From NCBI RefSeq assembly GCF_003018115.1, contig NZ_CP027457.1: DNA of 64,000 nt; one strand, given 5' to 3'. The stretch's first letter is position 1; the number at the start of each line of letters is the position of its first letter. The translations under genes were made by a program, and so were the position numbers. This DNA comes from Escherichia coli. GTDB lineage: Bacteria; Pseudomonadota; Gammaproteobacteria; Enterobacterales; Enterobacteriaceae. Under the pieces are notes generated by a model. That model ran no database searches. It was not told the DNA's origin and worked only from the letters and a program-made list of their open reading frames with translations. Positions 1 to 11,173 of this stretch are shown in pieces.

Positions 1-91
1 GAATGGCGTGAATATTGGCGTCATCTTTTAAAAAGTTAGCCAGCGTTTCCGCCGCTTCGTTCAGTTCGTTACGAATAAGATCCTGGTACAT
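1..91 (-). CDS. gmhA: Phosphoheptose isomerase GmhA, N-terminal 30 codons only (gene continues beyond window start)
   Basis: Reverse-complement of 1..91 reads [30 protein letters not shown]..., the GmhA N-terminus as I recall it; AGGA Shine-Dalgarno upstream of ATG; divergent from fadE as in K-12. Confidence 0.8.
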
Positions 92-292
92 GAGGATATC
101 CTTCAGCATAAATGTAATAGACAAAATGCAGTGTACCGGATACCGCCAAAAGCGAGAAGTACGGGCAGGTGCTATGACCAGGACTTTTTGACCTGAAGTG
201 CGGATAAAAACAGCAACAATGTGAGCTTTGCTGTAATTATATTGTAAACACATTGCTAAATGTTTTTACATCCACTACAACCATATCATCAC

Positions 293-309
293 AAGTGGTC
301 AGACCTCCT
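293..309 (+). promoter_or_regulatory. Candidate FadR operator upstream of fadE
   Basis: AAGTGGTCAGACCTCCT resembles the FadR half-site pattern CTGGTC-N-GACC seen at fad regulon operators; lies 22 bp upstream of the fadE start. Confidence 0.6.
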
Positions 310-330
310 ACAAGTAAGGGGCTTTTCGTT

Positions 331-2775
331 ATGATGATTTTGAGTATTCTCGCTACGGTTGTCCTGCTCGGCGCGTTGTTCTATCACCGCGTGAGCTTAT
401 TTATCAGCAGTCTGATTTTGCTCGCCTGGACAGCCGCCCTCGGCGTTGCTGGTCTGTGGTCGGCGTGGGTACTGGTGCCTCTGGCCATTATCCTCGTGCC
501 ATTTAACTTTGCGCCTATGCGTAAGTCGATGATTTCCGCGCCGGTATTTCGCGGTTTCCGTAAGGTGATGCCGCCGATGTCGCGCACTGAGAAAGAAGCG
601 ATTGATGCGGGCACCACCTGGTGGGAGGGCGACTTGTTCCAGGGCAAGCCGGACTGGAAAAAGCTGCATAACTATCCGCAGCCGCGCCTGACGGCTGAAG
701 AGCAAGCGTTTCTCGACGGCCCGGTAGAAGAAGCCTGCCGGATGGCGAATGATTTCCAGATCACCCATGAACTGGCGGATCTGCCGCCAGAGTTGTGGGC
801 GTACCTTAAAGAGCATCGCTTCTTCGCGATGATCATCAAAAAAGAGTACGGCGGGCTGGAGTTCTCGGCTTATGCCCAGTCTCGTGTGCTGCAAAAACTC
901 TCCGGCGTGAGCGGGATCCTGGCGATTACCGTCGGCGTGCCGAACTCATTAGGCCCGGGCGAGCTGCTGCAACATTACGGCACTGACGAGCAGAAAGATC
1001 ACTATCTGCCGCGTCTGGCGCGTGGTCAGGAAATCCCTTGTTTTGCGCTAACCAGCCCGGAAGCGGGTTCCGATGCGGGCGCGATTCCGGACACCGGGAT
1101 TGTCTGCATGGGTGAATGGCAGGGCCAGCAGGTGCTGGGCATGCGACTGACCTGGAACAAACGCTACATTACGCTGGCACCGATTGCGACCGTGCTGGGT
1201 CTGGCGTTTAAACTCTCCGACCCGGAAAAATTACTCGGCGGTGCAGAAGATTTAGGCATTACCTGTGCGCTGATCCCGACCACCACGCCGGGCGTGGAAA
1301 TTGGTCGTCGCCACTTCCCGCTGAACGTACCGTTCCAGAACGGACCGACGCGCGGTAAAGATGTCTTCGTGCCGATCGATTACATCATCGGCGGGCCGAA
1401 AATGGCCGGGCAAGGCTGGCGGATGCTGGTGGAGTGCCTCTCGGTAGGCCGCGGCATCACACTGCCTTCCAACTCAACCGGCGGCGTGAAATCGGTAGCG
1501 CTGGCAACCGGCGCGTATGCTCACATTCGCCGTCAGTTCAAAATCTCTATCGGTAAGATGGAAGGGATTGAAGAGCCGCTGGCGCGTATTGCCGGGAACG
1601 CTTATGTAATGGATGCTGCGGCATCGCTGATTACCTACGGCATTATGCTCGGCGAAAAACCTGCCGTGCTGTCGGCTATCGTTAAGTATCACTGTACCCA
1701 CCGCGGGCAGCAGTCGATTATTGATGCGATGGATATTACTGGTGGCAAAGGCATTATGCTCGGGCAAAGCAACTTCCTGGCGCGTGCTTACCAGGGCGCA
1801 CCGATTGCCATCACCGTTGAAGGGGCTAACATTCTGACCCGCAGCATGATGATCTTCGGACAAGGAGCGATTCGTTGCCATCCGTACGTGCTGGAAGAGA
1901 TGGAAGCGGCGAAGAACAATGACGTCAACGCGTTCGATAAACTGTTGTTCAAACATATCGGTCACGTCGGTAGCAACAAAGTTCGCAGCTTCTGGCTGGG
2001 CCTGACGCGCGGTTTAACCAGCAGCACGCCAACCGGCGATGCCACTAAACGCTACTATCAGCACCTGAACCGCCTGAGCGCCAACCTCGCCCTGCTTTCT
2101 GATGTCTCGATGGCAGTGCTGGGCGGCAGCCTGAAACGTCGTGAGCGTATCTCGGCACGTCTGGGGGATATTTTAAGCCAGCTTTACCTCGCCTCTGCCG
2201 TTCTGAAGCGTTATGACGACGAAGGCCGTAATGAAGCCGATCTGCCGCTGGTGCACTGGGGCGTACAGGATGCGCTGTATCAGGCAGAACAGGCGATGGA
2301 CGATTTACTGCAAAACTTCCCGAACCGCGTGGTTGCCGGGCTGCTGAATGTGGTGATCTTCCCGACCGGACGTCATTATCTGGCACCGTCTGACAAGCTG
2401 GATCATAAAGTGGCGAAGATTTTACAAGTGCCGAACGCCACCCGTTCCCGCATTGGTCGCGGTCAGTACCTGACGCCGAGCGAGCATAACCCGGTTGGTT
2501 TACTGGAAGAGGCGCTGGTGGATGTGATTGCCGCCGACCCGATTCATCAGCGGATCTGTAAAGAGCTGGGTAAAAACCTGCCATTTACCCGTCTGGATGA
2601 ACTGGCGCACAACGCGCTGGCGAAGGGGCTGATTGATAAAGATGAAGCCGCTATTCTGGTGAAAGCTGAAGAAAGCCGTCTGCGCAGTATTAACGTTGAT
2701 GACTTTGATCCGGAAGAGATGGCGACGAAGCCGGTAAAGTTGCCGGAGAAAGTGCGGAAAGTTGAAGCCGCGTAA
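331..2775 (+). CDS. fadE: Acyl-CoA dehydrogenase FadE (814 aa)
   Basis: ORF 253..2775; true start taken at the [24 protein letters not shown] methionine (pos 331), giving the 814-aa length I recall for FadE. Confidence 0.95.
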
Positions 2776-2783
2776 TTGAATAA

Positions 2784-2808
2784 CGGAGCCGAAAGGCTCC
2801 GTTTCTTT
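2784..2808 (+). terminator. Intrinsic terminator after fadE
   Basis: CGGAGCC-GAAA-GGCTCCG hairpin followed by TTTCTTT. Confidence 0.7.
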
Positions 2809-2817
2809 ATCCGCTAA

Positions 2818-3291
2818 TTATTTAAAATTAAAGCCATCCGGATGGTTTTCCAGGCTGCCGGTCAACGCCGCGAACAGCACCGTTTTACCATCAATCGAAA
2901 GCGCATCGTTCACATTCAACCAGGTGAGTTTCTCTTGCGACGTTTTCTCATCAATAGTCGAGAACAGCCCCGTCATCTGATTAGATTTCTCGGACCACAT
3001 CACAGCGATACGTTGCGAGCCACAGTCATGCGGTTTGCACGCGCTCATCACCTGATACGTCTCATCTCCCAACGTTACGGTTTGTGCAGGGGTATAAGTA
3101 CCGCCTTTCATCACCCAGGCAGGCAGCTTATGCCCTTGCACCATCTGATTAAATGCAGCTTTGGTGGTTTCGCCCTTTGCAAGGCTGCTAATGGTTAAAT
3201 CATCCTGCGCCATTGCACTGGTGGCGATGACCAGTGCGGCGACTGTCGTTATTGCCTTAAACATCATTCCTCCCGAGCTTATCCTGCCCAT
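2818..3291 (-). CDS. ivy: Periplasmic inhibitor of vertebrate C-type lysozyme, Ivy
   Basis: 157-aa ORF with signal peptide and CKPHDC motif; matches Ivy in sequence and position next to fadE. Confidence 0.93.
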   Translation of the reverse strand: MGRISSGGMMFKAITTVAALVIATSAMAQDDLTISSLAKGETTKAAFNQMVQGHKLPAWVMKGGTYTPAQTVTLGDETYQVMSACKPHDCGSQRIAVMWSEKSNQMTGLFSTIDEKTSQEKLTWLNVNDALSIDGKTVLFAALTGSLENHPDGFNFK

Positions 3292-3444
3292 GTTATTAAC
3301 CTTCTAAAGCCTGGCGATAACACGATAATTTGCAAATCAGATATTTCCAATATCAGCATTTGTTATCAATTTATTCTGCGCTAAGGCAACTGCCTGATAA
3401 GGTGTTAAAGTTATAAAACCCTTCGCATAAAGGAGTTGTACACC

Positions 3445-4212
3445 GTGCCTGGTTTGAAGATTACGCTTTTGCAGCAACCACTGGTGTGGATGGATGGCCC
3501 TGCCAACCTGCGTCATTTTGATCGTCAACTGGAAGGTATTACCGGGCGCGATGTGATCGTTCTACCGGAGATGTTTACCAGCGGCTTTGCCATGGAAGCG
3601 GCAGCTTCGTCGCTAGCACAAGATGACGTAGTGAACTGGATGACAGCTAAGGCGCAGCAGTGCAATGCGCTGATTGCAGGCAGTGTTGCATTACAAACGG
3701 AGTCTGGTTCGGTTAACCGCTTTTTGCTGGTTGAGCCGGGCGGCACGGTACATTTTTATGATAAGCGTCATCTGTTCCGCATGGCAGATGAGCATCTACA
3801 TTATAAAGCGGGCAATGCGCGAGTGATTGTGGAATGGCGCGGCTGGCGTATTTTGCCGCTGGTGTGCTACGACTTACGTTTTCCTGTGTGGTCGCGCAAT
3901 CTCAACGATTATGACCTCGCCCTGTACGTCGCCAACTGGCCTGCTCCGCGCTCTCTGCACTGGCAGGCATTGCTGACGGCCCGCGCGATTGAGAATCAGG
4001 CGTATGTGGCGGGATGCAATCGCGTCGGCAGCGATGGCAACGGCTGCCATTATCGCGGTGACAGCCGGGTGATTAATCCACAGGGCGAGATTATCGCTAC
4101 TGCCGACGCGCATCAGGCAACGCGCATTGATGCGGAGCTGTCGATGGCGGTGTTAAGGGAATATCGCGATAAGTTTCCGGCATGGCGGGATGCGGATGAG
4201 TTTAGGTTGTAG
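3445..4212 (+). CDS. yafV: Carbon-nitrogen hydrolase family protein YafV (omega-amidase)
   Basis: ORF 3436..4212; likely GTG start at 3445 ([15 protein letters not shown]...) 9 nt after AAGGAG; nitrilase-fold residues. Confidence 0.9.
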
Positions 4213-4257
4213 TGAGTGGGTGTTGTGTTTAGGGCTGGGGAGAGTCGGGGAAGACTA

Positions 4258-4640
4258 CGAAAGCCCGCTCTCCTGCGACCACTTTTATCATAGGAGTGTG
4301 GAAGTGCTTTTCCATCAATCGCGATGACGTCTTTGTCATTTGATGAATGGCAGTCACGCATCCAGTTAATAAAGCACTCGTGAAATTTTGCAGGACTGAT
4401 ACAGGATACAACTCTGGCAATGGTATCGTGAACAGGAATACCATTTTCAAAATCACCATATTGCTTCAAAAAATCGAGATGTGTTTCCCCAAAATCCTCT
4501 ATATCTTCCCAACCTTCTGCACCAGAAATAACGGCACAAATAGTCAACAGTAGAATATCCGATAATTTATGTTCCACGTTCCAGGCTTGTCTGTAATCGG
4601 GGATAACAGAAATATGTTCCATCAATTTTTTAAGTTCCAT
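4258..4640 (-). pseudogene. Internally deleted ISAs1-family (H-repeat) transposase copy
   Basis: First ~115 codons are near-identical to the intact copy at 4686..5822 ([20 protein letters not shown]...), then the frame diverges; nucleotide comparison shows the 5' part joined directly to the last ~30 bp of the element. Confidence 0.8.
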
Positions 4641-4676
4641 TTTGTTCTCCTTAATTATGTAAGGAGTATTTGATCC

Positions 4677-5860
4677 AGGGCAAGATTACGAAAGCCCGCT
4701 CCCCGCAAGGACTGACGCCAGATAGTTTCTGTCCATGGCTGCTTTTCGCATCTTACGTCTTAACCCTGCCTTGAATACCTTATCATTCGTCAAAATATTA
4801 ATAGCAATGTGCCGTATCCCTGAAAATAATTCCGCTGCATTTCCTCTTCTTATTCTGCAGTCGTCTTCATTCATTACCACGTCCAGGCGCCAGTGCAGCT
4901 TATTTTCCACGTGCCAGTGATTTCGGTTCGCTGTGGCGAACTTCTCTGCAGTTAAATCAGCAGAGCTGATATAATATCTGACCGTCATTTCGGGTTCTTT
5001 CTTTTGTTCTGCTATTATTGACCGAAAGGAGACTGCCACGCATAATTTCTTCAGCCCTTTCCATTCAAACGTGAAATCAATAAGTTCATCAGGGACATCG
5101 CAAACAATATGAAGACGGATTTCTTCTCTGCCGTGACTCTTTTCACTGATTGCGTAACTGTCATGCTCTGGATTATTTAATTCTTTCAGCGGAAATTTTT
5201 CCTCAAAGGCTTTATTTAGCCGCCCCTGGTTTCCTTTTACCGCGAATAAATAATCACCTCCCTGTTTTTGTATCTTCTCTGCAATATCTTTCTGGCAACC
5301 CATCGCATCAGTTGTGATGATTTTTCCTTTAATATCCAGCATGTTAAGAAGTTCTGGGATAGCTGTAATCTCATTAGATTTCTCATCCGTCCTGATCTGT
5401 CCGATGACCAGACTGTGCATTGTTGAGAACGCACTAATGACATGAATCGCTCCCCTGCGGCGACTCTTGTCATAAGAGTGCCGGAGCGTTTTTCCATCAA
5501 TTGCAATGACGTCTTTATCATCTGAAGAATGGCAGTCACGCATCCAGTTAATAAAGCACTCGTGAAATTTTGCAGGACTGATACAGGATACAACTCTGGC
5601 AATGGTATCGTGAACAGGAATACCATTTTCAAAATCACCATATTGCTTCAAAAAATCGAGATGTGTTTCCCCAAAATCCTCTATATCTTCCCAACCCTCT
5701 GCACCAGAAATGACGGCACAAATAGTCAACAGTAGAATATCTGACAATTTATGTTCTACTTTCCAGGCTTGTCTGTAATCGGGGATAATAGAAATATGTT
5801 CCATCAGTTTTTTAAGTTCCATTTTGTTCTCCTTATTTATGCAAGGAGTATTTGATCATA
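4677..5860 (-). mobile_element. Intact H-repeat (H-rpt) element, ISAs1 family
   Basis: Ends inferred from the repeated terminal sequences shared with the truncated copy (gggcaagattacgaaagcccgc... at the 3' end; ccttatttatgcaaggagtatttgatc at the 5' end); abuts the truncated copy in tandem. Confidence 0.75.
4686..5822 (-). CDS. ISAs1-family transposase (H-repeat-associated protein, YhhI-like), 378 aa
   Basis: 378-aa ORF typical of Rhs-associated H-rpt proteins (conserved DAMGCQ and [14 protein letters not shown] segments). Confidence 0.88.
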
Positions 5861-6290
5861 TATAAGCTATGAAAAATAGTTTTAGGTAATAAGGAATATC
5901 TCAATTATTGAACATTTAGCGCGAATTATTTAGTACAAAAAGTGTACTTCTGATGACCTTTCCCTGCTCCAAAGTCTTCTAAAATCAACAATGTAGACTC
6001 TTAATTATATTTATCAACACAATAATCTATCCTATTACTATCTTGACAAGAGAGAACCGTTTTTTATTTAAATATATGATACACATCATTAAATATATAA
6101 CCATACTTTTTCATAAGGCAATCTAACTTAGCTCTTAAATCACCAAAACCCATCACACCATAACATCTAATAGCCATTGCCACACGTCACCATGGATTTA
6201 TTTCCACCTGCAATTACTTCGTCCTAACTTTAATTTAATCTCAAGAAGCATTAAGATCTCAATAGCGAGCTTAATACTTCTTGAATAATA

Positions 6291-6668
6291 TCACTCCTGA
6301 CCAAAATTTTTCCACACTAATGCATGAGACTTTGATTTGTCACCCAGAAATTTACTTACATCTTGCCAAAGTAAAGAATTGCTATCGGTCGCAGTGACTA
6401 TTGCCTCTATAAGCCCTGTAGCTACAACTGTGGCCAATTCATCATCAAGCGAGACCATACCATCTTCGACATGTTTAAATATTTTTTCTCTTTCAATATC
6501 CCCCATTTCATAAAAATTTTTTACAATCGTTTTTCCAACCTGAGAGAACAACATAACCACCGGTGGCGTTTCTGGATGCCAGTATTCATTAGCTAATGAG
6601 ACTGTCTCAGACAAAACAGTGGAAAATGATGCCATTTTTTCTATATAACTAGCAATATATTGGTTCAT
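6291..6668 (-). CDS. Candidate cognate immunity protein for the Rhs C-terminal toxin (cytoplasmic, 125 aa)
   Basis: Small ORF immediately downstream of rhs; its ATG overlaps the rhs stop (TAATG); no signal peptide; AT-rich like the toxin-encoding tail of rhs. Confidence 0.75.
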   Translation of the reverse strand: MNQYIASYIEKMASFSTVLSETVSLANEYWHPETPPVVMLFSQVGKTIVKNFYEMGDIEREKIFKHVEDGMVSLDDELATVVATGLIEAIVTATDSNSLLWQDVSKFLGDKSKSHALVWKNFGQE

Positions 6669-9600
6669 TACTTGCCTCCCAAAGCATTCTGTAAATCCTG
6701 AAGAACGTTTTCTGCTGCTGCTCGATCCCCTGGAGATGCTGTTGGATTCTTATCCAACCAATCCTGTAAAGCCCTTGTATAATCCTGTGCTTTCAATACA
6801 TGTCCTCTACCACCAACTTTTTCACCTGTGGCCAATTCATAACGAACAGCATCTGCTGTGCTTCCACTTCCTACTTTTGCATTTGGCCGATAAAGATCGT
6901 CTATAATATTTTTCAAATTTGAATCTGTAACGTCGGGTTTTCCCATTTTCTGTCGCAATTCATCTTTATACCGTTCATGCTGCATACGATCCCTTGCGCT
7001 ATTCTCATCTTCTGGTCCCCATCCTCCCGGGCTTCCCGTACTGCCGCCGGCCAGGCAGTTCTTCTCTTCATCCGTCAAATCCTTCCCAACATTCGGCTGA
7101 CTCCCTGACGAATTATCATTCTCATGTGGGCTATCTAAAGGACAACTACTGGTCCAGTAACACATTTCAGCCTGAGAATTTATTAACTGCCCATCGCTCA
7201 GAGCCTTCCCGGCACGCCCATCATTAGCGAGAAGGTCATATCCCATTGGCCCAGCGACCACAGCCATTGCTCCAAGAGCAGGGGCAGCAGACGCCATAGC
7301 CGCCGTGACTGCATCAAAAGTCGCCGCCCCACCCGAAAGTAACGCCCCCCCAAATTCTGTTCCTGTTACTGTTGTGGCAGAACCAAGAACCAGTGTCTCA
7401 CCAGACAACCCAAGAGGATCCCCCCGCTGCACCGGGTTCAGCGGATACGCATACAGGTTCCATCCCCCCTTCAGCCCAATGGGATCCTGGGTGATATAGC
7501 GTCCCTGCAACGGATCGTAGTACCGGTTCCGGTTATAGTACAGCCCCGACTCCTCATCATACTGCTGCCCCGGCAGACGGAGTGACTGTTGAAGGTGCTG
7601 CGCGCTGGTTTCGCCCAGCAGGTTTCCCCACTCGTCATACTCCCCCTGCCACGCCGTTTCCCCTTCCGGGCTGATGAGCGCCAGCGGCAGTCCCCGGTGG
7701 TCGCAGTGGTAAAGATGAAGTTTCCTCTCCGGGATGTATTCCGCCTCCAGCTGTGCGGCCATCTGCTCCGCCGTCAGCCCGCACTGCGCAAGCCATGCCT
7801 CACTCTCCGCACTCACCGCTCCCGCGCGCAGTTCCCGCTCCAGCCTCCCCAGCATCACCGACAGCTCCGCCGGTAGCGTCACACCCGTGTCCTCCTGCAA
7901 CACCTCCGCCAGGCTCCGGTGCCGCGCCTTCGCCTGTTCGCCATTCTCTGTTTCGATTCTCAGGAGCGGCGTGAAGCTCCCCGGCTGGTATACCGTCTGG
8001 ATACGCGTGGTGCCGGTCTGTATCGTCGTCAGCCTGTCACCGTCCCACCCGTACCATGTCACCTCCGGTTTACGCGACAGCGACATCCACCCCGTCAGGT
8101 CACGCTCCCGCCGCCATACCCGTTTTCCCGTCCGGCGGCCCAGCGGGTCATAGAGGTACCGGCTCTCCACCTGTGGTTCGCCGTGCTGTATCCGCGTGTA
8201 GAACACCAGGCGGTGCTGGCTGTCGTAGTGATAGTGGTGGGTGCGCTCGTCGTGCATCCGGATAACCCCTTCCGGGATACGGTCCGTCTTCTCCGCCAGC
8301 CTGCCGTATTCATCGTGGCGGTAGACATAGTGCGCATCCTCCGCGATGCGGTTATCCGGCCACGCCGTGAGCGTGCTGTCCGGGTGCAGTTCCGGGTCCG
8401 GCAGCCGGTTTCCTGCCGGGTCCGTCGCATACGGGATATCAATGTCCAGGTTCGCTGCCGTGGTGTGGACGCCCGTCAGCCTTCCCGTGCCGCTGTAACG
8501 GTACTCCCGGCTCTCCTGCGGGCCGCTGATGCGGATTAGCTGTCCGTTGTCGTTCCACGTATACTCACGGTCAAGCTGCGGAAGGTTCAGGTGCCTGCTC
8601 CGGAGCTGGCCGCTGGTATTCCAGGCGGTGGCAAGTTCATATGCCTCCCCGCCGAAGCTGCGGGCCGTCTCACGGTGCAGCCGGTCCCGCGTGTACTCGA
8701 CCAGCGGCGTTCCGCCCAGCTTCATCCCCGCAAGATAACCGCTGCCATACGTCAGCCACTCCACCGGCGGCAGACCGTCCGGCTCCTGACGGGTCGCCAG
8801 CCCCTGTTCGCTGTACGCATGCCCCGTCTCATGCTCCCACAGCATCTCCCCCGTCTCCGGGTTCTCCACCGTCTGCCGTTCGCCCGTCAGGCGGCCTTTA
8901 TCGTCATAGCCGTAGTGGACCGACACGCGGTGGCCTTCACTGGTATGGCTGAGGGTGGTTAACCACCCGTGCTCATCATACTGCCACTGCTCTGCCGGGT
9001 CGCCGTTCACCGTCCGGTGCGTGATGCGGTCCGACGCATCGTAGTGCCAGAGGGTGATAAGCCCCTCGTCTTCACTCTGCGTGAGTTTTCCGGTCAGGTC
9101 ATAGTGGTAACGTTGCGTCCGGCCGTCAAAACCGCGCTGTTCAGTCAGCCTGTCCACCGGGTCATACCGGAACGTGGACTGGCTGCCGTTCTCGTTGGTC
9201 AGCACGGTGATGCGCCCGGCAGCGTCATACCCCATGCTGCGCGTAAGACCGCCTTCCGTCACACTCACCGGACGCCCGTGTTTATCATATTCGATGGTGC
9301 TGCGTTTACCGTCCGGTGATATCGTTGCTGTCAGGTCGCCTGCGGCGCTGTACTCATAACGGATTTCACGCCCCTGCGCATCCTTCTGACTGACCAGTTG
9401 CCCACGCGGGTTATAACTGCTGTAAGTGCTGATGCCTTCCTCCCGGTGAACGGCGATTTGTTGACCGTACCAGTCATACTCATACCGCGTCGTGTACCCC
9501 GAGCAGTCCGTGAAGGCCCGAAGCTGACCGTACCGGTTTCGCGTTATTCTCCGCGTCACCCCGGTTCCGTCTTCCACCGCGCCGGGCAGGCTACTGCGGG

Positions 9601-11173
9601 GGGAGTCATAAAACCAGCGCGTAATGTTACCGTTGCGCGAGGTCTCTTCTGCCAGTCGGCCCTGACGGTCATATTTCCGGTTGCTGCGTAAACCATCCGG
9701 ATATGTCACTGAAGTCAGTTGCAACTGGCTGTTGTAACCATACCGTACCGTCCTGCCGTCCGGCAGTATCACTGAAGTCAGCTTTCCAGACGCCATATGC
9801 AGCCGGTACTCCGTCCGCCGCCCCGCCGCATCCGTCTGCGCCTTCAGCCTCCCCGCCTCATCATACTCGCTGCGGGTGATGCTCCCGTCCGCATGTTCCT
9901 TCTTCACCACACGCTTCAGGCCACCTTCGCCCTCCGTGTACAGCACCTCCCGCCGGTTCAGGCTGTCCGTGATGGTCACACGGTCCTGCCCGTACTCAAA
10001 GCGGTAGTCCAGCCCCTCCGGGTTGACCTGTTCTGTCACCCGACCGGTATCATCATACCGGTAGCGGCTCTCCGGCCTCCCTGCATAATGGTGCGCCACC
10101 ATCCGCCCGGCGTGCTGCACATCATAAGTAAACCCGCGCACCTGCGTCCCGCTGCGGTCATACACCGCCCGCAGTTCTCCGCTGGCCGTGTACGTGTAGC
10201 GCGCCAGCGGCGCAGTCGGCTGTTCATCCGGGTATGCCGGGTCGTGTGTCAGCCACACCGCCTCCAGCCGGATACCGTTATCGGCACCGTACTCTGTACC
10301 GGCGGGCAGCGTGTCGGGGAAAGCTGAAGAAAAGGAAGAAGAGGAAACAGAACGGGGACTGGCCGGGGAAGATAAGGAAGACTCGCGCTGTTTACGGAAG
10401 GCTTCCGCCCGCTGCGCCTGTGTGGTCAGCGCCAGGTGAAAACGGCGGCCCGCGCCGTCCGTCACCCCCGTCACCGCGCCCGCCACGTCACCCTCCGCCG
10501 CCCTGTGAAAGGCCAGCGTCCGACCAAAGCCATCCACCACGCCCGTCAGCACCCGGTATGCGGGCGGCTCCGGCGGCAGCACCTCGTCCGCCTCCGGCAC
10601 CCGCTCCGGCCAGCTGAGCACCAGCCACTGCCCGGTTGTGCTGACAGCCATCATATAGGTGTGTGGACTCAGACGGACCGCTTCCGGCAGCGCCCGCCAG
10701 AGCCGGGCCAGCGGGTGGCCTTTGTGTTGTTTCAGCACCCCACCCCTTGCCAGCCAGAGTGACTCGCTGCGGCTGTAGCTTATCTCGCCGGGAAACAGCG
10801 GCTCAAAGTGAATGCTCCTGCCGCCGTTGTCGTTGAGTATCAGTTCCCGCTCATGAATCTGTAAGCGGATATCAAAGGGGGCTTTCCAGCCGGGGCCAAA
10901 CACCCCCACCGGCGCGGGCGTCCTGGTCCGGTAACTGCTGTAGGCACGGGAAAGAATGAACGGCAGCGGGCCGGGCAGCGCAAGGTCCGTCTCGCCCGGC
11001 AGCACCTTCGCACCCAGTAGCGGGTTCACCGGGTTAGCATAGGTAATCCCTCCCGGACACACCGAGCAGGCCACTCCCGTCGGCGCACCTATCAGCACCC
11101 CCGCTGAACCCTGCACAATATCCAGTCCCTTGCGGGTCATATCACCCTGCCGCGCCGCCGGTTTTCCGCCCAT
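6668..11173 (-). CDS. rhs: PAAR-domain Rhs effector with variable C-terminal toxin domain (1501 aa)
   Basis: N-terminus [13 protein letters not shown]...[10 protein letters not shown] (PAAR-like); long YD/RHS repeat core; core-end motif [13 protein letters not shown] ~276 aa before the C-terminus; divergent, lower-GC C-terminal ~110 aa. Confidence 0.93.

What the first reader, a model, noticed from the sequence alone, without database searches (positions are those of the whole stretch)
5856..6290. Gene-free, very AT-rich spacer between the Rhs immunity gene and the H-rpt element
About 430 bp with no ORF of 60 codons or more on either strand and a composition unlike both the Rhs core and the IS element. 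In Rhs elements this position often holds decayed orphan CT or immunity fragments, or promoters for downstream orphan modules; it may also hold the 3' processing signals of the effector operon.
Basis: inference. Interest (0 to 1): 0.3.

Follow-up and report, generated by a model that had tools for sequence, protein, structure and literature searches.

The report
IS end plus dead immunity-gene stub
The "empty" AT-rich spacer after the Rhs toxin-immunity pair is ordinary: it consists of the untranslated end of the neighbouring insertion sequence, a decayed and truncated stub of a second (orphan) immunity gene, and a short tail of the immunity gene carrying a hairpin.

Summary
Window 5856-6290 has 29.9% G+C and no ORF longer than 39 codons. 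Lack of a 60-codon ORF is expected by chance at this composition (69% of shuffles also lack one).

The segment is not one spacer but three known things, all read on the minus strand:
1. **5856-5966** is inside the H-rpt element. ISEc1 spans 4676-5966 (1291 bp). Its left inverted repeat begins CAGGGAAAG, followed by a 144-bp leader before the transposase ATG at 5822.
2. **5968-6183** is the first 72 codons of a 117-119-aa CdiI-type immunity gene (Pfam PF28203). It has two in-frame stops and is cut off exactly at the IS end.
3. **6184-6290** is the 3' flank of rhsI, with a conserved 16-bp hairpin (6241-6284, -21 kcal/mol) but no U-tract.

A metagenome-derived contig (L013) keeps the ancestral state: the same Rhs-CT and rhsI followed by the intact 117-aa gene. 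Intact relatives sit directly after CdiA toxins, and a model of one matches CdiI of Burkholderia pseudomallei 1026b.

No toxin fragment, Rfam RNA or excess of promoter-like sites was found. Low interest; known kind.

The parts
4676..5966 (-). Complete ISEc1 (H-rpt, ISAs1 family), 1291 bp. The transposase CDS is 4686-5822. The termini read CAGGGCAAG... (4676, + strand) and CAGGGAAAG... (5966, - strand).
   Evidence: Alignments of left ends (A4) and right ends (A7) of copies with unrelated flanks. Pfam DDE_Tnp_1_assoc and DDE_Tnp_1 hits. PGAP names it 'ISAs1-like element ISEc1 family transposase'.
5823..5966 (-). Left untranslated end of ISEc1 (144 bp, 29% G+C): inverted repeat plus transposase leader. 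It includes a hairpin at 5829-5848 that pairs with the AAGGAG Shine-Dalgarno sequence. 5856-5966 of this lies inside the reported finding.
   Evidence: About 88% identical to the same part of H-rpt copies in more than 5,000 E. coli genomes, K-12 included. Alignment; hairpin flagged.
5968..6183 (-). Pseudogene stub: codons 1-72 of a 117-119-aa CdiI-type orphan immunity gene (PF28203, CDI_Immunity_Comp). In-frame stops lie at 6064-6066 and 6001-6003. It is truncated at the IS terminus.
   Evidence: tblastn of 25 family members, all aligning residues 1-72 in one frame. Translation. Intact ancestral arrangement in L013. About 83.6% DNA identity to the 5' part of WP_000020701.1 genes.
5968..6069 (-). 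Older, decayed 3' part of the stub. It has 23 differences in 99 nt from the intact allele, spread 8:7:8 over codon positions, with 13 GC>AT changes against 6 AT>GC.
6070..6183 (-). Recent 5' part of the stub. It has 2 differences in 111 nt from the intact L013 allele, and its first 36 residues are identical to P0005. It forms the 39-codon ORF 6064-6183.
6184..6290 (-). Intergenic DNA between the rhsI stop codon and the stub. 6216-6290 is shared with the diverged allele that lacks the stub (L003/L018). 6184-6215 is present only where the stub or the intact gene is present.
   Evidence: Alignments.
6241..6284 (-). RNA hairpin 8 nt after the rhsI stop codon. The stem has 15-16 pairs, including G.U pairs that form only in the sense (minus-strand) transcript. 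No U-tract follows.
   Evidence: Sense strand -21.2 kcal/mol, z = -3.96, 0 of 200 shuffles as stable; antisense -16.3. The L003 allele folds at -21.3, with three one-sided changes that keep pairing. The terminator scan found no minus-strand terminator.
6291..6668 (-). rhsI, a 125-aa immunity-position gene. Its start overlaps the rhs stop codon by 1 nt.
   Evidence: It always sits directly after the matching Rhs-CT in L003, L006, L013, L018 and L019. Its only Pfam signal is a sub-threshold DUF7674 hit.
6668..11173 (-). rhs, 1501 aa, the last effector gene of an hcp-vgrG-rhs-rhsI unit of a type VI secretion cluster.
   Evidence: Pfam RHS_repeat, DUF6531 and RHS. Upstream VgrG and Hcp, with divergent TssB, TssC and TssF.
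4247..4675 (-). Older, internally deleted ISEc1 copy next to yafV. The complete copy abuts it 35 bp upstream of its ATG.

Best explanation
The segment is a composite scar at the 3' end of a type VI secretion hcp-vgrG-rhs-rhsI unit in E. coli. It is not a functional unit of its own.

Anatomy, reading the minus strand:
- rhsI ends at 6291.
- Its 3' flank follows, carrying a stable hairpin at 6241-6284.
- Next comes the start of a second, orphan immunity gene of the CdiI family PF28203, whose intact relatives protect against CdiA-CT toxins related to that of B. pseudomallei 1026b.
- That gene is cut after codon 72 by the left terminus of ISEc1 (H-rpt) at 5966.
- It also carries two in-frame stops, so it cannot make a working immunity protein.
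- The remaining 111 bp of the reported interval are the IS's own inverted repeat and transposase leader.

Shown:
- the boundaries of the parts;
- the homology of the stub to the family;
- an ancestral intact arrangement (L013);
- the truncation and the stops.

Inferred:
1. The stub is a mosaic. An old, neutrally decayed 3' part stayed attached to the IS. The 5' part was overwritten when the present Rhs-CT/rhsI cassette arrived by homologous recombination, with a crossover near 6070.
2. The whole cassette (3' Rhs core, CT, rhsI, stub) moves between Rhs loci, using the Rhs core and the H-rpt/stub as homology arms.
3. The hairpin marks or protects the 3' end of the rhs-rhsI transcript.
For: IS boundaries: (copies with unrelated flanks become homologous exactly at CAGGG...).

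Stub homology. Residues 1-72 align in a single frame; the best hit has E = 3e-33; stops lie at codons 40 and 61.

Ancestral state. L013 carries the Rhs end, the same 125-aa rhsI, a 113-bp gap and an intact 117-aa gene. It has only 3-4 mismatches in about 630 bp up to window position ~6070.

Family identity:
- PF28203 'CDI_Immunity_Comp' is recorded on all hits of 79 aa or longer.
- A homologue lies 10 bp after a 3573-aa CdiA carrying PT-VENN and CdiA_C domains, and after orphan CdiA_C fragments.
- That toxin matches PDB 4G6V chain A at E = 2e-37.
- The AlphaFold model of intact P0005 (pLDDT 88.6) matches only 4G6V chains B and F, the CdiI of that complex, with TM 0.72/0.81 and E = 2e-5.

Neutral decay and mosaic: (2 differences in 111 nt against 23 in 99 nt; codon positions 8:7:8; GC>AT 13 against AT>GC 6).

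Cassette mobility:
- The same module, at least 99.3% identical from ~7600 to 5968, sits at the rhsE locus in L006 and L019, where the IS is only ~97% identical.
- Derived variants also exist: L006 with a 112-bp internal deletion, L015 with only 38 bp of the stub left before an IS1, and L003/L018 with no stub.

Hairpin.

Background: orphan modules in CDI and Rhs loci, their disruption by IS elements, and the sharing of CT and immunity types between CDI and Rhs are described in PMC3150448.
Against: - No transcript data, so the role of the hairpin is inference. It has an AU-rich stem and no U-tract, so it is not a canonical intrinsic terminator.
- The flanks of the complete ISEc1 are not a target-site duplication, and the missing 3' part of the gene is nowhere in the window. 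The truncation was therefore not a simple insertion, and the order of events is not resolved.
- The intact ancestral arrangement is known from one short Logan contig only. None of 5,426 complete E. coli genomes has it.
- The mosaic could equally mean that the L013 allele is the recombinant. Family alleles are mosaics in general.
Confidence: 0.9

Rival explanations
1. The spacer is a dedicated regulatory region. Its AT-rich DNA carries promoters that drive the ISEc1 transposase or other downstream genes, some of them created by the decay of the stub.
For: On the minus strand the scan finds TTGTCA-16-GATTAT (6049-6022), TTGATA-16-TACATT (6017-5990) and TTGCCT-18-TATATT (6121-6092). The first of these arose from substitutions relative to the intact allele.
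Against: The number of promoter-like sites equals the chance expectation (7 against 5.4 +/- 2.3). AT-biased decay makes such matches for free. The short variant L003/L018 lacks the whole stub yet keeps an intact transposase gene. The IS leader has a hairpin over its Shine-Dalgarno sequence; in other ISs (from general knowledge) such hairpins damp read-through expression.
Confidence: 0.1
2. The 39-codon ORF at 6064-6183 is a functional small protein, an N-terminal piece of the CdiI-like protein that has been retained.
For: Its first 36 residues after the ATG are identical to intact P0005, and the start region is identical to L013. About 130 complete genomes carry it at 99% identity or more.
Against: The identity is explained by recent shared ancestry of the whole cassette: the flanking non-coding DNA is just as identical. 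It would lack about 80 of 117 residues, including 23 of the 30 invariant columns of the family (those from residue 52 on). L006 and L019 delete 112 bp inside it, and L003/L018 lack it. The model shows one compact alpha/beta domain that needs the C-terminal strands.
Confidence: 0.03
3. The interval encodes a small non-coding RNA or another structured RNA element.
For: A stable hairpin at 6241-6284 with strand-specific G.U pairs.
Against: No Rfam family scores anywhere near threshold; the best is 19 bits with E = 0.6, to a plant miRNA model. The hairpin is a single stem directly after a stop codon. Only two alleles exist, so there is no real covariation test. It occurs once per genome and is not a repeated element.
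Confidence: 0.03

Closest known systems
Orphan immunity genes and orphan CT/immunity modules downstream of rhs and cdiA genes (Poole et al. 2011, PMC3150448)
   Same: It sits immediately after the main rhs-CT/rhsI pair. It belongs to a family shared with CDI systems and is disrupted by an IS element, as that paper describes for orphan modules.
   Different: Only an immunity gene is present, with no CT fragment and no Rhs-core homology upstream of it. It is also truncated and carries stop codons, so it is a dead remnant rather than a silent cassette.
CdiI of Burkholderia pseudomallei 1026b (PDB 4G6V chains B/F) and Pfam PF28203 CDI_Immunity_Comp
   Same: The stub is homologous to the N-terminal 72 residues of PF28203 proteins. 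An intact member models onto 4G6V_B (TM 0.72/0.81). Relatives follow toxins homologous to 4G6V_A.
   Different: Sequence identity to the solved CdiI is only 17-18%, and a sequence search of the PDB finds nothing. The window copy lacks the C-terminal 45-47 residues.
H-rpt / ISEc1 (ISAs1 family insertion sequence associated with E. coli Rhs elements)
   Same: 111 bp of the finding are its left end. The copy is 1291 bp long, has CAGGG-type terminal repeats and encodes a 378-aa DDE transposase.
   Different: No target-site duplication flanks this copy. It abuts an older, deleted copy on one side and the immunity stub on the other.
Rho-independent terminators and 3' stabilising stem-loops of bacterial operons
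   Same: A stable stem-loop lies directly after the last stop codon of the operon and is conserved between alleles.
   Different: The stem is AU-rich and no U-tract follows, so it fails the definition of an intrinsic terminator. Its function is untested.

Membership tests
PF28203 / CdiI (Bp1026b-type) immunity protein family | Significant sequence similarity to family members | tested here: met
   tblastn of 25 members: residues 1-72 align to 6183-5968 in one frame. The best hit is P0005, 81% identity, E = 3e-33 against the whole window.
PF28203 / CdiI (Bp1026b-type) immunity protein family | Complete, uninterrupted domain of about 117-120 aa | tested here: not met
   Only 72 codons are present, with stops at codons 40 and 61. 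Codons 73 onward are absent from the whole window. It is a pseudogene fragment, not a member protein.
PF28203 / CdiI (Bp1026b-type) immunity protein family | Fold of a solved CdiI, and position directly after a cognate CdiA-CT toxin | tested here: met
   Met for intact relatives only. The P0005 model matches 4G6V_B/F. L007, L008 and L009 homologues lie 10 bp after CdiA_C toxins. In the window itself no toxin remnant precedes the stub.
Orphan rhs-CT/rhsI module | An rhs 3' fragment (core homology plus CT) followed by its immunity gene | tested here: not met
   The 107 bp between rhsI and the stub have stops in all six frames and no similarity to the toxins tested. The homology with other loci starts at the stub's start codon.
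ISEc1 / ISAs1 family insertion sequence | DDE transposase, terminal inverted repeats and a defined length | tested here: met
   DDE_Tnp_1_assoc and DDE_Tnp_1 domains. The ends were defined by multi-copy alignment at 4676 and 5966, giving 1291 bp, and both ends begin CAGGG.
ISEc1 / ISAs1 family insertion sequence | Direct target-site duplication flanking the copy | tested here: not met
   The flanks are ...CTTTGGAG and GATCAAAT..., which are unrelated. This is consistent with later recombination between copies.
Intrinsic (Rho-independent) terminator | G+C-rich stem followed by a U-tract | tested here: not met
   A hairpin is present (-21.2 kcal/mol), but the stem is AU-rich and the tail reads AGAUUAAAUUAAAG. 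The scan reports no minus-strand terminator.
Any Rfam RNA family | Score at or above the gathering threshold | tested here: not met
   The best hit is 19.3 bits against a gathering score of 249.

The most novel reading that the evidence does not exclude
The truncated immunity stub, together with the adjacent H-rpt, may not be mere debris. It could act as the downstream 'landing pad' for exchanging whole Rhs-CT/rhsI cassettes between strains and between Rhs loci. The sharp switch at about 6070, from about 2% to 23% divergence from the intact L013 allele, would be the footprint of such an exchange. The presence of the same cassette at the rhsE locus would be a second instance.
Probability: 0.15. 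Interest if true: 0.3.

Novelty: already known. Interest (0 to 1): 0.08.

Why it matters
It matters mainly for annotation. RefSeq leaves this interval blank in about 130 identical genomes. It can now be labelled as the ISEc1 left end (the IS boundary is at 5966, not at the transposase start codon), a CdiI-family pseudogene, and a post-rhsI hairpin.

The stub records history. This T6SS Rhs locus once carried an extra immunity gene against a toxin type related to the B. pseudomallei 1026b CdiA-CT, and later lost it to IS-associated rearrangement. That fits the accepted picture of Rhs and CDI loci as collectors and shufflers of immunity genes. Nothing here changes that picture.

Tried and rejected
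- The local Pfam and NCBIfam scans of the intact 119-aa homologue and its neighbours found nothing. The local Pfam copy appears not to contain PF28203; the family name came from precomputed hits.
- A sequence search of the PDB with the 119-aa protein gave no hit. Only the fold comparison linked it to CdiI.
- A scan of genome contigs with RhsI found no relative in species-representative genomes. RhsI homologues are almost confined to E. coli. The two diverged ones (L016, L017) have different or decayed downstream DNA, so a covariation test of the hairpin was impossible.
- An Rfam scan at E <= 10 returned only noise.
- tblastn of CdiA-CT toxins, the L004 orphan CT and the 164-aa neighbour against 5800-6320 returned only noise. 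The idea of a CT fragment was therefore rejected.
- The idea that the short variant (L003) arose by deletion between GCAGG microhomologies was considered. The junction is off by 4 nt and the alleles differ, so it is left open.
- A paper search for H-rpt and ISEc1 found nothing specific about the IS ends.

Full report
**Setting**

The window is E. coli chromosome. Bases 1-7535 are 99.99% identical to strain F9792. The gene order is fadE-ivy-yafV, then IS copies, then on the minus strand rhsI (6291-6668), a 1501-aa rhs (6668-11173), vgrG and hcp. Type VI secretion core genes lie on the other strand. The finding therefore sits at the 3' end of an hcp-vgrG-rhs-rhsI effector unit.

**Observation**

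- 5856-6290 is 435 bp with 29.9% G+C. The Rhs core has 63.6%, the transposase gene 42% and rhsI 37%.
- The longest ORF is 39 codons.
- The lack of a 60-codon ORF is what this composition gives by chance: 69% of shuffles also lack one.
- RefSeq annotates nothing here.

**Part 1: the IS end (5856-5966)**

A search of 5823-6290 against 5,426 complete E. coli genomes showed that the first ~144 bases recur about five times per genome next to ISAs1/ISEc1 transposase genes, K-12 included.

I aligned the regions upstream of the transposase ATG from seven copies whose flanks are unrelated. All become homologous exactly at CAGGGAAAG, which is window position 5966. The same procedure at the other end gives CAGGGCAAG at 4676.

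The element is therefore 4676-5966, or 1291 bp. So 111 bp of the "spacer" are the IS's inverted repeat and transposase leader. Just outside the finding, at 5829-5848, a hairpin pairs with the AAGGAG ribosome-binding site.

**Part 2: a dead immunity gene (5968-6183, minus strand)**

- The middle of the spacer is 83.6% identical to the 5' part of a 119-aa gene (WP_000020701.1) found in other E. coli. One genome annotates it as "CDI system immunity component".
- In tblastn, 19 of the 25 database homologues align from residue 1 to residue 72 on 6183-5968, in a single frame. N-terminally shorter or partial entries align over the corresponding part of the same frame.
- The translation reads VAMAIRCYGVMGFGDLRAKLDCLMKKYGYIFNDVYHIFK*KTVLSCQDSNRIDYCVDKYN*ESTLLILEDFG. 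It stops exactly at the IS terminus.
- The missing codons 73-119 are nowhere in the window.

**What the gene was**

All homologues of 79 aa or longer carry PF28203, "CDI_Immunity_Comp".

- In L007, a 120-aa homologue starts 10 bp after a 3573-aa CdiA with TPS, PT-VENN and CdiA_C domains.
- In L008 and L009, it follows orphan CdiA_C fragments.
- That toxin domain matches PDB 4G6V chain A, the B. pseudomallei 1026b CdiA-CT, at E = 2e-37.
- The immunity family has no sequence match in the PDB.
- An AlphaFold model of the intact member P0005 (pLDDT 88.6) matches only 4G6V chains B and F, the CdiI of that same complex, with TM 0.72/0.81 and E = 2e-5.
- In Escherichia the intact genes lie in orphan arrays without that toxin.

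**Ancestral state and history**

P0005 comes from a 1361-bp Logan contig (L013). It carries the end of an rhs, the same 125-aa rhsI, a 113-bp gap and the intact 117-aa gene.

L013 and the window differ at 3-4 positions in about 630 bp up to window position ~6070. Over the last 99 nt before the IS they differ at 23 positions. Those differences fall 8:7:8 on the three codon positions and are biased GC>AT by 13 to 6. This is neutral decay, and the sharp boundary indicates recombination rather than differential selection.

No complete E. coli genome keeps the intact arrangement. Variants of the scar exist:

- the same cassette with a 112-bp internal deletion at the rhsE locus (L006, L019);
- 38 bp of the stub left before an IS1 (L015);
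- a ~95% allele in which ISEc1 follows rhsI after 75 bp with no stub (L003, L018).

Between the window and L006, identity is at least 99.3% from ~7600 (3' Rhs core) to the stub, but only ~97% inside the IS. The core-CT-rhsI-stub block has therefore moved between Rhs loci.

The flanks of the complete ISEc1 are not a target duplication. Its other side abuts an older, internally deleted ISEc1. The truncation thus involved more than one simple insertion.

**Part 3: the rhsI 3' flank (6184-6290)**

- All six frames are closed, and there is no similarity to CdiA-CTs or neighbouring orphan proteins.
- A hairpin at 6241-6284 begins 8 nt after the stop codon. On the sense strand it folds at -21.2 kcal/mol (z = -3.96, 0 of 200 shuffles as stable). 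On the antisense strand it folds at -16.3.
- The diverged L003 allele folds equally well (-21.3). Its three one-sided changes (C-G to U.G, and U.G to U-A twice) keep pairing in the sense RNA.
- No U-tract follows, and the terminator scan reports nothing on this strand.
- With only two alleles, no covariation test is possible.
- A role as a transcript 3' end or stabiliser is my inference.

**Other checks**

Rfam gave nothing. Promoter-like sites are at the chance level.

**Comparison with what is known**

The following are described in PMC3150448:

- orphan CT/immunity modules and orphan immunity genes after rhs and cdiA;
- their interruption by IS elements;
- the sharing of toxin and immunity types between CDI and Rhs.

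The association of H-rpt/ISEc1 with E. coli Rhs elements is long established (my own knowledge). This locus is an instance of that, with an immunity-only remnant and no CT fragment.

**Verdict**

This is a real but ordinary composite. Low interest.

Noticed in passing
window 4247-4675 and 4676-5966: There are two ISEc1 copies. A complete 1291-bp copy abuts an older, internally deleted copy exactly 35 bp upstream of the latter's ATG. The outer flanks are not a target duplication. In L004 and L005 an ISEc1 likewise sits inside codon ~17 of another ISEc1. This suggests insertion into, or recombination among, its own copies.
   Followed up: partly
window 5829-5848 (minus-strand RNA): The hairpin CUCCUUGCAUAAAUAAGGAG pairs with the transposase Shine-Dalgarno sequence 6 nt before the ATG. 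It could damp translation from read-through transcripts. The scan flagged it on the + strand as terminator-like.
   Followed up: no
window 6204-6215 versus the IS terminus at 5956-5967: GCAGGTGGAAAT, just upstream of the stub, resembles the ISEc1 terminus GCAGGGAAAGGT. In the variant without the stub (L003/L018) the IS end is joined 4 nt before this motif. This may be a microhomology deletion or a preferred target site; it is unresolved.
   Followed up: partly
window 7120-7407 (rhs C-terminal region): The window and the L003/L018-type alleles are ~95% identical on both sides, but this ~290-bp patch does not align at all. It is a mosaic replacement inside the toxin-proximal region, while rhsI stays ~96% identical.
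   Followed up: no
L006 and L019 (rhsE locus near pptA-yddH-nhoA): The same Rhs-CT/rhsI/stub cassette occurs at a second chromosomal Rhs locus. It is at least 99.3% identical from window position ~7600 to 5968, and carries a 112-bp deletion inside the stub.
   Followed up: partly
L001 9834-9836 (corresponding to window ~7535): In strain F9792 and similar strains the otherwise identical locus has the rhs gene truncated and fused to a fragment of an IcmF/TssM gene. Part of the T6SS cluster has therefore been deleted there.
   Followed up: no
proteins P0001, P0005, P0013 (alignment A6): PF28203 alleles are themselves mosaics. The C-terminal 47 residues of P0005 are identical to E. fergusonii P0013, its middle part is like P0001, and its N-terminus is distinct.
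   Followed up: partly
L004 6812-7681 and 6321-6815: In other E. coli the intact 119-aa gene follows an orphan 289-aa C-terminal toxin-like ORF and a 164-aa ORF whose start overlaps that ORF's end by 4 nt. Neither has any Pfam or NCBIfam hit. This is probably an uncharacterised orphan toxin/immunity pair.
   Followed up: no
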